Below, one piece after another: positions 1 to 35,242 of a stretch of DNA of 64,000 nt (within the stretch, counting starts at the first letter, position 1; each line of letters begins with the position of its first letter). Under the pieces are notes generated by a model. That model made no database searches. It saw only the letters and a list, made by a program, of their open reading frames with translations, and was not told the DNA's origin. Location: sequence record OR515477.1. The stretch is one strand, 5' to 3'. The DNA is from Escherichia phage Es2. The position numbers and the translations under genes are program-made.

Positions 1-719
1 CCATCATAGTCCTTAGCAACCAGACCACGACGAGACAGCATAGATTTAACACCGCGCTCAGATTTACCAGTTTTCTCAGCGATCTCAGCAACAGTCATGT
101 TAACCAGATCCAGACCTTCTAACAGATCTTCACGAGTTTTAGCACTTGAAGTTTCCTGTACCGGCATAGCAGCGATACGACCTTCACGAAGCAGGCTCAG
201 AGCTTTACCACGGATCTGTTTGATATTACGACCGAAGTGAGCAGCGATAGCTTCAATAGTAGCACCAGCAACAACCTGATTAACAAAATCAGTTTCTTCA
301 TCCGGAGTGAAGGAACGAACAGCGGCAGCTTTTTCAGTTGGTTTAACAGAAGCGGTCATTTCCAGACTCAGGATCTTACCCTGTACCTGTTTAGCACCGA
401 ACTGACCACCAGCTACAGCAGCAGCGATCTCAGCATAGGTATACTGACCAGCATGAGCGTTCAGGAAATCAACCAGTTCAGCTTCCTGCTCAGGAGTCCA
501 CGGGGATTTCTGTACTTCGTTAGCTTTCTGTACTTCAAAACCTTCTTTACGCAGTTTAGAGCCAACGGAGCGAGCAGTAACATCTTTGCCAGTTTCAGCA
601 GCCAGTTCAGCAGCGATAGCAGCTACTTGTTCTTGAGAGATTACAGCAACACCCAGAGCAGTGGCTTTTGCTTTCAGAGACTCGGTTACACCTTCTACGT
701 TCCAGTTCAGTTTAGACAT
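1..719 (-). CDS. hypothetical protein, partial (C-terminus beyond window edge); three internal repeats, strong codon bias
   Basis: Minus frame open from ATG (plus-strand cat at 717-719) to position 1; translation MSKLNWNVEGVTESLKAKATALGVAV... with three similar segments (AEIAAAV / IEAIAAHFGRNIKQIRGKALSL / VAEIAEKTGKSERGVKSMLSRRGL); the + ORF 237-746 is its Ser-rich antisense. Confidence 0.55.
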   Translation of the reverse strand, partial: MSKLNWNVEGVTESLKAKATALGVAVISQEQVAAIAAELAAETGKDVTARSVGSKLRKEGFEVQKANEVQKSPWTPEQEAELVDFLNAHAGQYTYAEIAAAVAGGQFGAKQVQGKILSLEMTASVKPTEKAAAVRSFTPDEETDFVNQVVAGATIEAIAAHFGRNIKQIRGKALSLLREGRIAAMPVQETSSAKTREDLLEGLDLVNMTVAEIAEKTGKSERGVKSMLSRRGLVAKDYD

Positions 720-1494
720 TATTATTTTTCTCCAATAGTTCTTTAATCGACAGGATTTCTATCCCATTCGTTTCGGCTTTCTTATAAGATGAGGAAGAAC
801 GCTTTGATTCATCCTCACAGATTAGGTATTTGACGTCTTTAGTAACGGATTTCTTAACCGTATACCCTAGACTTTCTAAATAGTTTGTTGCATCCGTTCT
901 ATTTGCAAAATCTTGCAAAGATCCGGTAATACATACCGCGATTCCATTTGGTTGGGCTACTAGACCATCAGTGATGATAACCTCAGCTTTAGCACCCTTA
1001 ATACCATTTGAGAATTTCCACGGTAATTCAATAACATCCTTGCCTTGTGGGGAATTTAGCCAGGCTTTATAGTTTTCTCCAGCTTTGCCGTCAGCCTTCA
1101 CATCACGGAAGCTAGTGCAATTTTGGGATAATTTCTTTGCTGCAACCTCTCCAATTAGGGGGATTCCTAAAGAACCGAGAACTGAACCAAAGTCAATGTC
1201 TCCGCGAACTTTAGTATTTAATTCGCTAATTAACTTAGCGGCAACCTTGCTACCCACGGCTCTAACCAAATCTTCTTCGGTTAGGTAAAATAGTTCTGAA
1301 ATCTTCGTCAGCCCCAGCTTCTCAATAGTTTTTGGGCCAAAACCCTTTAACTTCATTTTTGAACAGAAGTTCTCAATTAACTTACTTGATTGCGCTGGAC
1401 AGTTGGACTTATTCCGACAGAATAATTGTCCGTTGACAAGATCTAGCTTAGAACCACAAGAGGGACATTGTGTTGGAATTTCGATTTTCATCAA
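712..1494 (-). CDS. lig: NAD-dependent DNA ligase, C-terminal module (Zn-finger, HhH, BRCT-like)
   Basis: CPSCGSKL..C..C zinc-finger-like N-terminus, GFGPKTIEKL helix-hairpin-helix, C-terminal BRCT-like region; adjacent to the adenylation module. Confidence 0.75.
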   Translation of the reverse strand: MMKIEIPTQCPSCGSKLDLVNGQLFCRNKSNCPAQSSKLIENFCSKMKLKGFGPKTIEKLGLTKISELFYLTEEDLVRAVGSKVAAKLISELNTKVRGDIDFGSVLGSLGIPLIGEVAAKKLSQNCTSFRDVKADGKAGENYKAWLNSPQGKDVIELPWKFSNGIKGAKAEVIITDGLVAQPNGIAVCITGSLQDFANRTDATNYLESLGYTVKKSVTKDVKYLICEDESKRSSSSYKKAETNGIEILSIKELLEKNNNV

Positions 1495-1521
1495 ATTTCT
1501 TCCTTATCAATTTATATAAAT

Positions 1522-1550
1522 ATTATAGCAAGTATTTAAGCATTTAGCAA
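1522..1550 (-). promoter_or_regulatory. early-type sigma70 promoter (minus strand)
   Basis: Reverse complement reads TTGCTA, 17 bp, TATAAT, then TTTATATAAATTGATAAGG. Confidence 0.6.
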
Positions 1551-1693
1551 CTACAATTTTAATTAACTTTGCTTACCCTCGCCATAACTTTCTATCCCTC
1601 AACTGAATGATAATAGTATATACCTAAGCGGCGAAAATGTCAATAACCACTTTATAATTCCGATATGGTAGATGGGTAGCAAAGGGTTATGTA

Positions 1694-2665
1694 TTAATCG
1701 TATACTCGCTCTACTATGCACGGTATTACACCACCAGCACGAATCACTCGAATCTGGCAACCGATCTCTAGATCAAGAGAGTTAATATAATCAACGTTAT
1801 TAAGAGTCGCTTTAACAATTGTAGCGTCATCAATAATTACCGGTTCGAAATATCCAACAGGAGTTACTTTACCAGAAGCCCCTACCTGCCACTCAACTTT
1901 GAGAAGAGTTGTAATTTCGCCTTCTTCATCTTGTTTAATTGCATAAGCACCGCGAGGATGTTTATTCGTCCAACCTTCTCGGAAGAATTTGTTGTTGTCA
2001 TTAATACGAACAACTTTACCGTCCGTAGGAATCCATTTAAAGAAGGAACGCACATTAACAACTGTTAAGAAGTTCTCATTCTCCAGCCAGAGCATATCTT
2101 TTAAATATGCTTCTGTAACACCTACAGATTCAGCAGAACACTGGATACCATATGCAACGAAGATTAAACCACCCTCCCCGATACGTTGTACGAAATCATC
2201 GCTATCTTTGAGGTTAATAGCACCAGAGGCAAAGTTACGTTTATTTTCTACTTCTTTTGTAATTAGAACTTCGCCAGTGATTTGAGTAGGTACTTTTTGA
2301 GAAATCTTTTTAGGAATGTTCAGCAATCTTACGTTGCTTGTGACATCATTTCCCAGAATACCATTACCACGAGTTAATGCTTGAACAAACTCACCGTTAA
2401 TATATAGCAGAGAAATTGCACAACCATCTAACTTATCAGTTTCTACCTGACCTAACGGGTTAAATGGGGGTTTATCTCCACGATTATAATAAACTTTCTG
2501 TAAAGAATACATACGATACAGATGTGGAATATCACCCTTAGGCCCGATCTCTTCTTCTAGTGGGAAGCGTTTTACTAAGCAATCATATTCTTCATCAGAG
2601 ATTAAAGACATGCCTTGATAGTATGCTTCTTGACAGCGTTTAATAAATTCTTTTACATTAGTCAT
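1694..2665 (-). CDS. lig: NAD-dependent DNA ligase, N-terminal adenylation/OB module
   Basis: KLDG adenylation motif (ETDKLDGCAISLLY), LigA-like domain order; promoter-like sequence in the 199 bp gap to the C-terminal module. Confidence 0.75.
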   Translation of the reverse strand: MTNVKEFIKRCQEAYYQGMSLISDEEYDCLVKRFPLEEEIGPKGDIPHLYRMYSLQKVYYNRGDKPPFNPLGQVETDKLDGCAISLLYINGEFVQALTRGNGILGNDVTSNVRLLNIPKKISQKVPTQITGEVLITKEVENKRNFASGAINLKDSDDFVQRIGEGGLIFVAYGIQCSAESVGVTEAYLKDMLWLENENFLTVVNVRSFFKWIPTDGKVVRINDNNKFFREGWTNKHPRGAYAIKQDEEGEITTLLKVEWQVGASGKVTPVGYFEPVIIDDATIVKATLNNVDYINSLDLEIGCQIRVIRAGGVIPCIVERVYD

Positions 2666-2697
2666 TTATTTGTATCTCTCATTAATTTATATAAATA

Positions 2698-2725
2698 TTA
2701 TATAACAGAACTGAGTTGAAAGCAA
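2698..2725 (-). promoter_or_regulatory. early-type sigma70 promoter (minus strand)
   Basis: Reverse complement TTGCTT, 16 bp, TATAAT; drives the ligase N-terminal module. Confidence 0.6.
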
Positions 2726-2752
2726 ATACATTTATAAAGAAAAAGCCAAGAA

Positions 2753-3061
2753 CTAGGCATTCTTGGCTTTGAGTTCTTCAGCTCGTTTCTGTACTTCATG
2801 TAAAACCTCAGATTCGCTAAGAATCTGTGTAAACGCATAGAAAAGCTGTGATGTTGTTTCTAGAGTGTAAGGAAAAGAGAAGCCAGATTTCGTTGGAAAC
2901 CATTCATCATTAATATCAAGAAGCCAGTAACGAATACCCATGTATAGATTCCCACGAAATTCAGATACTGTTAATCTTACTTGTTCCCCCTCCTTCTCCC
3001 AAAGTATGATGGACTGGTCATCAACGTGTCCTTCATAGTTTTGATTTACCTGTTCGCTCAT
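2753..3061 (-). CDS. hypothetical protein
   Basis: Six-frame ORF, 102 aa, preceded by early-type promoter on minus strand. Confidence 0.5.
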   Translation of the reverse strand: MSEQVNQNYEGHVDDQSIILWEKEGEQVRLTVSEFRGNLYMGIRYWLLDINDEWFPTKSGFSFPYTLETTSQLFYAFTQILSESEVLHEVQKRAEELKAKNA

Positions 3062-3080
3062 TTACATATCCCAAATACAC

Positions 3081-3101
3081 AAAAAGCCCCATATAGGGGC
3101 T
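3081..3101 (-). terminator. rho-independent terminator (minus strand)
   Basis: Reverse complement AGCCCCTATATGGGGCT followed by TTTTT. Confidence 0.55.
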
Positions 3102-34983: not shown

Positions 34984-35004
34984 TGCTTAATTTCTTGTTA
35001 TAAT
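34976..35004 (+). promoter_or_regulatory. early-type sigma70 promoter
   Basis: TTGCTT, 17 bp, TATAAT; followed by hairpin GATGAGGA-GAAA-TCCTCATC. Confidence 0.55.
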
Positions 35005-35242
35005 ATTTATATAAATTGATGAGGAGAAATCCTCATCATAGTTCACTAAGGTATTAGCTCGACCTAGGACTGGCTGCCAAAAAGCACGATCCCTACGATT
35101 CGGGAAAAGTTCTAGATTGGTCCACTAGATTCAGCGGCAACTGAATAGTGTATTGGGTTTGCGAGATGACGTAGTTCCTTCCGCTCTAAGCGAAGGTGCT
35201 GTAGTTACGCCGAGCTAATAGCCTTAGTAAACTAAAGAATTT

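What the first reader, a model, noticed from the sequence alone, without database searches (positions are those of the whole stretch)
712..2665. NAD-dependent DNA ligase encoded as two separate ORFs with a promoter-like gap
The adenylation/OB module (1694-2665) and the Zn-finger/HhH/BRCT module (712-1494) are separate ORFs on the same strand, separated by 199 bp that contains a consensus early promoter (1522-1550). The enzyme is therefore either made as two polypeptides or the gene is disrupted by a decayed mobile element or intron. A two-subunit LigA-type ligase would be unusual.
Basis: partly seen in the sequence, partly recalled or inferred. Interest (0 to 1): 0.5.

Follow-up and report, generated by a model that had tools for sequence, protein, structure and literature searches.

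The report
Split two-subunit DNA ligase of T5-like phage
This is the known two-gene (ligA + ligB) NAD-dependent DNA ligase of phage T5 and its relatives, a real and ancient split at a domain boundary, whose 202-bp spacer carries two conserved early promoters, so it is genuine but already described.

Summary
The window is a T5-like phage (Tequintavirus). On the minus strand, ORF 1694-2665 encodes domain Ia, the adenylation domain and the OB fold. ORF 712-1491 encodes the Zn finger, HhH and BRCT domains. The 202-bp spacer has 18 stop codons and the two ORFs are in different frames, so no sequencing error can join them.

The cut lies in the OB|Zn linker, near E. coli LigA residues 393-400. Both genes are under strong purifying selection (dN/dS 0.04-0.12).

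The split is present in every Demerecviridae genus sampled and in more than 100 metagenomic clusters at 50% identity. The spacer holds two sigma-70 promoters, which the T5 GenBank record annotates as P-K28b and P-K28a. Both are conserved as far as Providencia phage PR1.

It is already known:
- PDB 9HU3 (released January 2026) is the [quoted passage not shown]. Its two chains are the PR1 orthologues of these two ORFs.

A decayed intron or mobile element is not supported.

One small addition: a distant T5-like metagenomic contig with the same gene order has the ligase fused into one 568-aa protein. This points to a gene fission in place.

The parts
2697..2725 (-). Promoter in front of ligA: TTGCTT-17-TATAAT, followed by the shared early-promoter 19-mer (2684-2702).
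   Evidence: Read from the sequence. The T5 record annotates a promoter at the equivalent place, L001 1556-1630 = window 2671-2745. 19-mer match. The -35 hexamer matches only 3/6, so the scan did not list it.
1694..2665 (-). ligA, subunit A (323 aa): short domain Ia, nucleotidyltransferase domain with the KxDG lysine at K78, and OB fold. It ends ...VIPCIVERVYD at the end of the OB domain.
   Evidence: Pfam PF01653 and PF03120. PDB 9hu3_A E=3.5e-102. Alignment to E. coli LigA and catalytic residues. dN/dS 0.04-0.05. T5.116 'subunit A'.
1615..1643 (-). Upstream spacer promoter: TTGACA-17-TATACT (T5 P-K28b).
   Evidence: Scan, 11/12. Annotated as P-K28b in AY543070. Hexamers conserved in Klebsiella IME260 and Providencia PR1.
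1559..1585 (-). Mini-ORF MARVSKVN* with GAGGGA upstream, just downstream of P-K28b. Significance unknown; it may be chance or a relic.
   Evidence: PR1 has a 9-codon ORF at the aligned position. IME260 has only a 4-codon one.
1522..1550 (-). Downstream spacer promoter: TTGCTA-17-TATAAT with extended TG (T5 P-K28a).
   Evidence: Scan, 10/12. Annotated as P-K28a. Conserved to PR1. The following 19-mer is identical to the one at the ligA promoter.
1499..1505 (-). Shine-Dalgarno sequence AAGGAAG for ligB, 9 nt before the ATG at 1491.
   Evidence: Read from the sequence.
712..1491 (-). ligB, subunit B (259 aa): Cys4 zinc finger (C9, C12, C25, C31), shortened HhH domain, linker and BRCT domain. Its end overlaps the start of D5 (ATG at 719) by 8 nt.
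   Evidence: Pfam BRCT and HHH_2. PDB 9hu3_B E=4.7e-80. Invariant cysteines. AlphaFold model, pLDDT 81.6, best match 9hu3_B then 2owo_A. dN/dS 0.08-0.12. T5.117 'subunit B'.

Best explanation
This is the heterodimeric NAD+-dependent DNA ligase of a T5-like phage, encoded by two early genes. Subunit A (Ia-NTase-OB) takes AMP from NAD+ onto K78 and carries out the chemistry. Subunit B (Zn-HhH-BRCT) supplies the DNA-binding half. Together they are expected to clamp around a nick, as single-chain LigA does. The gene was cut cleanly in the OB|Zn linker without loss of residues. The spacer carries two tandem sigma-70 early promoters that add transcription of ligB and the overlapping downstream D5 gene. 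No terminator was detected after ligA, so read-through from the ligA promoter may also reach them (a PR1 record does annotate one in its spacer). Shown here: homology, domain content, cut position, selection on both genes, conservation of the split and of the promoters, and the existence of a solved orthologous heterodimer-DNA complex. Inferred: that this phage's two proteins associate and ligate, NAD+ use, promoter activity in this phage, and a higher or separate dosage of ligB and D5.
For: Domain content. The cut lies at E. coli LigA ~393 | ~400, and the residues I checked are mostly kept: Y15, D24, Y27, D28, K78, D80, G81, R99, E132, R143, D215, G216, K244, R309, V313, I314. Four cysteines are invariant. 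dN/dS is 0.04-0.05 for ligA and 0.08-0.12 for ligB. 454 phage records carry the same arrangement at the DNA level. T5, HdH2, rutana, Klebsiella IME260, Erwinia KEY, Providencia PR1 and Vibrio VPG01, D13 and Cody all have separate ligA and ligB. The top 120 ligB homologues are all 247-263 aa apart from four shorter, apparently truncated ones (190-256 aa). PDB 9HU3/9I5I chains A and B match PR1 gp098 and gp097 exactly over the stretches compared, and the entry is titled 'PR1 phage heterodimeric DNA ligase in complex with 21-mer nicked DNA'. Promoter hexamers are conserved to PR1, while the spacer differs from T5 at 1 of 202 positions against dS of 0.27 and 0.095 in the flanking genes. The T5 record names the promoters P-K28b and P-K28a.
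Against: No biochemistry or structure exists for this phage's own proteins. Identity to the solved PR1 pair is only about 53-54%. Several E. coli residues that I recall as important differ: R208->N, R277->I, K290->R, R333->A, H23->Y. The consensus promoter count in the region is not above chance. No paper describing 9HU3 could be found in the library, so I rely on the entry title for the claim of a heterodimer on DNA.
Confidence: 0.93

Rival explanations
1. The gene is a pseudogene, or was interrupted by a decayed intron, homing-endonuclease cassette or other mobile element, and the host LigA does the work.
For: The spacer position is a place where other genera carry extra ORFs: Erwinia KEY has one, Vibrio phages have two. 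So insertions do happen there, and an ancient insertion may have caused the fission.
Against: Both halves have dN/dS of 0.04-0.12 and retain most of the catalytic and Zn-binding residues checked. Rfam has no hit in 1300-1900 at E<=1. The inserted ORFs in other genera are a DprA-like protein (phrog_768) and proteins of unknown function, not endonucleases. The spacer is more conserved than synonymous sites. The PR1 orthologues form a solved complex on DNA.
Confidence: 0.02
2. The split is a sequencing or assembly frameshift in a single ligase gene.
For: None beyond the adjacency of the two ORFs.
Against: There are 18 stop codons across the three frames of a 202-bp spacer, and the ORFs are in different frames. 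The same arrangement is seen in 454 independent phage records and in metagenomes.
Confidence: 0.005
3. The two products work largely independently. Subunit A is a self-sufficient minimal ligase. Subunit B is a separate BRCT/HhH DNA-binding factor, for example a nick binder or replisome adaptor expressed with D5.
For: ligB has its own two promoters and is translationally linked to D5 rather than to ligA. In Vibrio phages the two genes are more than 1 kb apart with other genes between them. ligA and ligB show different dS in the same genome pairs.
Against: The two genes always co-occur next to each other, in this order, in every locus examined. A syntenic relative has them fused. PDB 9HU3 shows them as one heterodimer on a nick. 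From my own knowledge of LigA domain-deletion studies, Ia-NTase-OB fragments self-adenylylate but seal nicks poorly without Zn-HhH.
Confidence: 0.05

Closest known systems
Phage T5 ligA/ligB (T5.116/T5.117; GenBank AY543070, AY692264, NC_005859)
   Same: The 2.2-kb region is 96.3% identical at the DNA level. ORF lengths are the same (323 and 259 aa), the spacer is the same 202 bp (1 difference), the promoters are the same, and ligB overlaps D5 in the same way.
   Different: Only point substitutions: 8 nonsynonymous differences in ligA and about 6.5 in ligB.
Providencia phage vB_PreS_PR1 heterodimeric DNA ligase (PDB 9HU3, 9I5I; gp098 + gp097)
   Same: The gene is split in two at the same position, with the same domain content. 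E-values are 3.5e-102 and 4.7e-80. Both spacer promoters are conserved.
   Different: About 53-54% identity. PR1 subunit A is 10 aa longer and subunit B 11 aa shorter. The PR1 record also annotates a terminator in its spacer, which the scan did not find here.
E. coli LigA (PDB 2OWO), the single-chain bacterial NAD+-dependent ligase
   Same: The same order of modules: Ia, NTase, OB, Zn, HhH, BRCT. Motif residues and the Cys4 finger are kept.
   Different: The phage enzyme is two polypeptides, not one. It is compact: about 582 aa in total against 671, with a shorter Ia domain, two deletions in the NTase domain and one HhH unit missing. Some E. coli residues are replaced (R208N, R277I, K290R, R333A).
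Compact fused phage LigA of 555-578 aa (for example P0145 on metagenome contig L014)
   Same: The same compact domain set, with 36-38% identity to both halves. L014 has the same neighbours in the same order: D2-like, D3-like, two small genes, ligase, D5-like.
   Different: It is a single ORF. A roughly 14-residue linker (GVEIKPLSRTVINLDIN) takes the place of ...ERVYD* + 202-bp spacer + MKIEIPTQ, and there is no promoter-bearing spacer.

Membership tests
NAD+-dependent DNA ligase (LigA family) | N-terminal domain Ia with NMN-binding residues (E. coli Y22, D32, Y35, D36; list recalled from memory) | tested here: met
   Y15, D24, Y27 and D28 of subunit A align to them. H23 is Y. The domain is shortened.
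NAD+-dependent DNA ligase (LigA family) | Nucleotidyltransferase domain with the KxDG lysine and motifs III, IV and V | tested here: met
   PF01653 84.4 bits against a cut-off of 27. K78, D80, G81, E132, D215, G216 and K244 are kept. K290 is R220.
NAD+-dependent DNA ligase (LigA family) | LigA-type OB fold | tested here: met
   PF03120 78.5 bits against a cut-off of 32.9. R309, V313 and I314 are kept.
NAD+-dependent DNA ligase (LigA family) | Cys4 zinc finger after the OB fold | tested here: met
   C9, C12, C25 and C31 of subunit B are invariant in 22 homologues and align to the E. coli finger region.
NAD+-dependent DNA ligase (LigA family) | HhH DNA-binding domain | tested here: met
   Pfam HHH_2 scores 24.6 bits, below its cut-off of 27. 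However, phmmer aligns residues 3-122 to E. coli LigA 402-529, and the model matches 2owo_A at E=1.5e-07. One HhH unit is missing.
NAD+-dependent DNA ligase (LigA family) | C-terminal BRCT domain | tested here: met
   PF00533 33.2 bits against a cut-off of 21.3.
NAD+-dependent DNA ligase (LigA family) | All modules on one polypeptide | tested here: not met
   Two ORFs are separated by 202 bp containing 18 stop codons, in different frames.
NAD+-dependent DNA ligase (LigA family) | NAD+-dependent nick sealing | not testable with these tools
   This needs an enzyme assay.
Heterodimeric LigA/LigB ligase of T5-like phages (Demerecviridae; PR1 type, PDB 9HU3) | Two adjacent co-oriented genes, cut at the OB|Zn linker | tested here: met
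Heterodimeric LigA/LigB ligase of T5-like phages (Demerecviridae; PR1 type, PDB 9HU3) | Full-length homology of each product to the corresponding solved chain | tested here: met
   9hu3_A covers 4-323 at E=3.5e-102. 9hu3_B covers 1-255 at E=4.7e-80.
Heterodimeric LigA/LigB ligase of T5-like phages (Demerecviridae; PR1 type, PDB 9HU3) | Physical A-B complex on nicked DNA | not testable with these tools
   Known only for PR1, from the PDB entry title.
Gene interrupted by a group I/II intron, intein or homing-endonuclease cassette | Intron RNA structure, an endonuclease ORF, or intein residues at the junction | tested here: not met
   No Rfam hit. There is no ORF in the spacer apart from an 8-codon one. 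The junction residues add up to the linker length of the fused relative, leaving no extra sequence for an intein. Inserted ORFs in other genera are not endonucleases.

The most novel reading that the evidence does not exclude
The promoter-bearing spacer, not the ligase, may be what selection keeps. On this reading the fission let the phage place two strong early promoters inside the former ligase gene, so that ligB and D5 are made in excess over ligA. The surplus subunit B (Zn-HhH-BRCT) would then have a role without subunit A, for instance binding or shielding the site-specific nicks of T5-type genomes, or docking replication proteins through its BRCT domain. The evidence does not exclude this. 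The spacer is far more conserved than synonymous sites, and ligB is coupled to D5 rather than to ligA. The solved PR1 complex was made on a 'phage nick sequence'.
Probability: 0.1. Interest if true: 0.5.

Novelty: already known. Interest (0 to 1): 0.15.

Why it matters
It shows that the LigA clamp can be assembled from two separately encoded halves. That is of some interest for ligase engineering and for how phage replication genes are regulated. But the point has already been made by the T5 annotation and by the PR1 heterodimer structure. The findings that I could not locate in the literature available here are comparative. The cut site and the two spacer promoters are conserved across the family. 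The spacer is under stronger constraint than the flanking synonymous sites. A syntenic T5-like relative still has the fused gene.

Tried and rejected
- **Rfam:** a search of 1300-1900 at E<=1 for intron or riboswitch structures found nothing.
- **Terminator:** the scan found none between ligA and ligB. The only ones are upstream of ligA, at 2742-2770 and 3085-3101.
- **Inserted ORFs:** I tested whether the ORFs lying between ligA and ligB in Erwinia and Vibrio phages are homing endonucleases. Pfam and PHROGs gave only a DprA-like family and families of unknown function. The 'endonuclease' annotated next to ligB in phage SPLA5b is simply the D5 gene under another name.
- **53-aa ORF:** ORF 1599-1760, which overlaps the end of ligA, has no Pfam hit and I treated it as spurious.
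- **Literature:** searches for 9HU3, 'heterodimeric DNA ligase', PR1/Providencia and the promoter name K28a found no paper on the split ligase or on these promoters. Only a T5 helicase paper lists 'ligase subunit A and B' in passing (PMC3632103).
- **Tree:** a neighbour-joining tree of the subunit B region was too star-like to say how many fission or fusion events occurred. I draw only the coarse conclusion that split and fused compact forms belong to one clade, apart from the long cellular-type LigA.
Full report
**What is there**

The window is a T5-like phage. The 2.2 kb around the finding matches 454 phage records. Most are Salmonella and Escherichia Tequintavirus or Epseptimavirus, and phage T5 itself is 96.3% identical.

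On the minus strand, ORF 1694-2665 (323 aa) carries the NAD-ligase adenylation domain (PF01653, 84.4 bits) and the LigA OB fold (PF03120, 78.5 bits). ORF 712-1494 carries a BRCT domain (33.2 bits) and weaker HhH matches. The probable start of the second ORF is the ATG at 1491, 9 nt after AAGGA, as in the T5 annotation. That gives 259 aa and a spacer of 202 bp.

The spacer has 7, 5 and 6 stop codons in its three frames, and ligB is in a different frame from ligA. No single frameshift or read-through can join them.

**Where the cut falls**

I concatenated the two products of eight T5-like phages and aligned them to E. coli LigA. Subunit A ends at about E. coli residue 393, the end of the OB domain. 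Subunit B begins at about residue 400, eight residues before the first zinc-finger cysteine.

Most of the residues I recall as essential in E. coli LigA are kept:
- **Domain Ia:** Y15, D24, Y27, D28.
- **NTase:** K78 (the KxDG lysine), D80, G81, R99, E132, R143, D215, G216, K244.
- **OB:** R309, V313, I314.
- **Zinc finger:** four cysteines, invariant in 22 homologues.

Some are replaced in the whole phage clade: R208N, R277I, K290R and R333A (A or K within the clade).

The enzyme is compact. Domain Ia is shorter, the NTase domain has two deletions, and one HhH unit is missing.

**Both genes are alive and the split is old**

- **Selection:** pairwise dN/dS against T5, HdH2, MET_P1 and rutana is 0.04-0.05 for ligA and 0.08-0.12 for ligB.
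- **Family-wide split:** separate ligA and ligB genes, in this order, are present in T5, HdH2, MET_P1_179_112, rutana, SPLA5b, Klebsiella IME260, Erwinia KEY, Providencia PR1 and Vibrio VPG01, D13 and Cody.
- **Variable spacing:** the enterobacterial phages have a spacer of 192-204 bp. Erwinia KEY has one extra ORF there. The Vibrio phages have two, one of them DprA-like. None is an endonuclease.
- **Close homologues:** in the 5.8-billion-protein collection, the best 120 relatives of ligB, down to 50% identity, are 247-263 aa, apart from four shorter, apparently truncated ones (190-256 aa).
- **Distant homologues:** the exhaustive search of 50%-identity representatives lists more than 100 stand-alone clusters of about 250 aa.
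- **A remote example:** one member on a 1.7-kb metagenome contig has a ligA-type gene (39% identical) ending 48 bp upstream, cut at the same place.

**Fused relatives**

The same exhaustive search found about ten compact single-chain forms of 555-578 aa, at 33-42% identity.

One of them, P0145, sits on a contig whose genes match the window in the same order: D2-like, D3-like, two small genes, ligase, D5-like. Its residues 9-306 match ligA and residues 315-567 match ligB. Its OB-to-Zn linker is about as long as the C-terminal tail of subunit A plus the N-terminal tail of subunit B. So the split is a clean cut in the linker, with no residues lost.

All other LigA enzymes are single chains, so I infer that a fission happened in place in the T5-like lineage. 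A neighbour-joining tree was too poorly resolved to count events.

**The spacer**

It contains two sigma-70-type promoters. TTGACA-17-TATACT lies at 1643-1615, and TTGCTA-17-TATAAT, with an extended TG, lies at 1550-1522.

The count of consensus matches in this AT-rich region is not above chance (5 against 6.8 expected), so the case rests on other evidence:
- The T5 record annotates exactly these two as promoters P-K28b and P-K28a.
- Both pairs of hexamers are conserved in Klebsiella IME260 and Providencia PR1, where most of the rest of the spacer has diverged.
- Within Tequintavirus the spacer differs from T5 at 1 of 202 positions, while synonymous divergence is 0.27 in ligA and 0.095 in ligB.

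The 19 bases from the -10 hexamer onward (TATAATATTTATATAAATT) are identical at the ligA promoter (2684-2702) and at P-K28a (1509-1527). They recur 17 times in the window with up to 3 mismatches, against 0.22 expected. This is a common early-promoter design.

No terminator-like site lies between the genes. ligB overlaps the start of D5 by 8 nt. I infer that ligB and D5 are transcribed from the two spacer promoters, perhaps with read-through from the ligA promoter as well.

**How it works**

The deciding evidence is a solved structure. PDB entries 9HU3 and 9I5I contain a 339-aa chain named 'DNA ligase (NAD(+))' and a 248-aa chain named 'DNA ligase subunit B'. They match the two window ORFs at E=3.5e-102 and 4.7e-80.

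The aligned parts of these chains that I compared are identical to gp098 and gp097 of Providencia phage PR1: 244 residues of chain B and a 111-residue stretch of chain A. An AlphaFold model of the window's subunit B (pLDDT 81.6) finds 9hu3_B first. That entry is titled 'PR1 phage heterodimeric DNA ligase in complex with 21-mer nicked DNA containing phage nick sequence' and was released on 2026-01-14.

So the orthologous pair forms a heterodimer on a nick. By homology, subunit A here does the adenylyl transfer and sealing chemistry, and subunit B supplies the Zn-HhH DNA-binding half and the BRCT domain. That the two proteins of this particular phage associate, use NAD+ and depend on each other is inferred, not shown.

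**Rivals**

- **Pseudogene or decayed intron or mobile element:** contradicted by the selection on both halves, the lack of any Rfam hit, the conserved regulatory spacer and the solved complex.
- **Sequencing artefact:** excluded.
- **Independent functions for the two products:** not fully excluded, but unlikely given their constant co-occurrence, the fused syntenic relative and the structure.

**Novelty**

This is already known. [quoted passage not shown] A 2013 paper lists them as such (PMC3632103). The heterodimer has been solved. I could not find the paper that describes the structure.

The comparative points made here are modest additions:
- the cut site is conserved across the family and in metagenomes;
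- both spacer promoters are conserved as far as PR1;
- the spacer is under stronger constraint than the flanking synonymous sites;
- a syntenic relative has the fused gene.

Noticed in passing
window 1509-1527, 2684-2702, 34999-35017 and 14 further sites: The 19-mer TATAATATTTATATAAATT (-10 hexamer plus the start of the transcript) occurs 17 times with up to 3 mismatches, against 0.22 expected. All copies below 12 kb are on the minus strand and all between 23 and 47 kb are on the plus strand. This looks like a family of early promoters in two divergent transcription blocks.
   Followed up: partly
window 1559-1585 (-): An 8-codon mini-ORF (MARVSKVN) with a GAGGGA Shine-Dalgarno-like sequence lies just downstream of promoter P-K28b. 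PR1 has a 9-codon ORF at the aligned position and Klebsiella IME260 only a 4-codon one. It could be a leader peptide, a relic or chance.
   Followed up: partly
window 1492-1693 versus the flanking genes: The spacer differs from T5 at 1 of 202 positions, although synonymous divergence is 0.27 in ligA and 0.095 in ligB. ligA's dS is also about 2.5-3 times that of ligB in every pair compared. This may mark a recombination boundary near the spacer.
   Followed up: no
window 1-719 (-): The D5 gene overlaps the end of ligB by 8 nt. It has 47% G+C against 38-40% in the ligase genes. Its codon choice looks like that of a very highly expressed E. coli gene.
   Followed up: no
L005 3469-4448; L009 3469-4361; L006 3457-3917; L008 3459-3785: In Vibrio T5-like phages, a DprA-like gene (phrog_768) and a small ORF sit between ligA and ligB. 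Erwinia phage KEY has one 108-aa ORF there. The inter-subunit gap seems to be a place where accessory genes are inserted.
   Followed up: partly
L014 2151-3857 (Logan SRR12825405): A distant T5-like metagenome contig with the same gene order has the ligase as a single 568-aa ORF, followed immediately by the D5 homologue.
   Followed up: yes
L013 700-760 (Logan SRR17187268): A distant split pair has a spacer of only 48 bp. It contains TTGATT-17-TATAAT ending 7 nt before the ligB ATG, with no visible Shine-Dalgarno sequence. The ligB transcript may be leaderless.
   Followed up: no
window 2742-2770 and 2753-3061 (-): The 102-aa ORF upstream of ligA is annotated in T5 records as a PC4/p15-like transcriptional coactivator or regulator. 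A 12-bp stem terminator-like hairpin spanning its stop codon, followed by a T-run, separates it from the ligA promoter.
   Followed up: no
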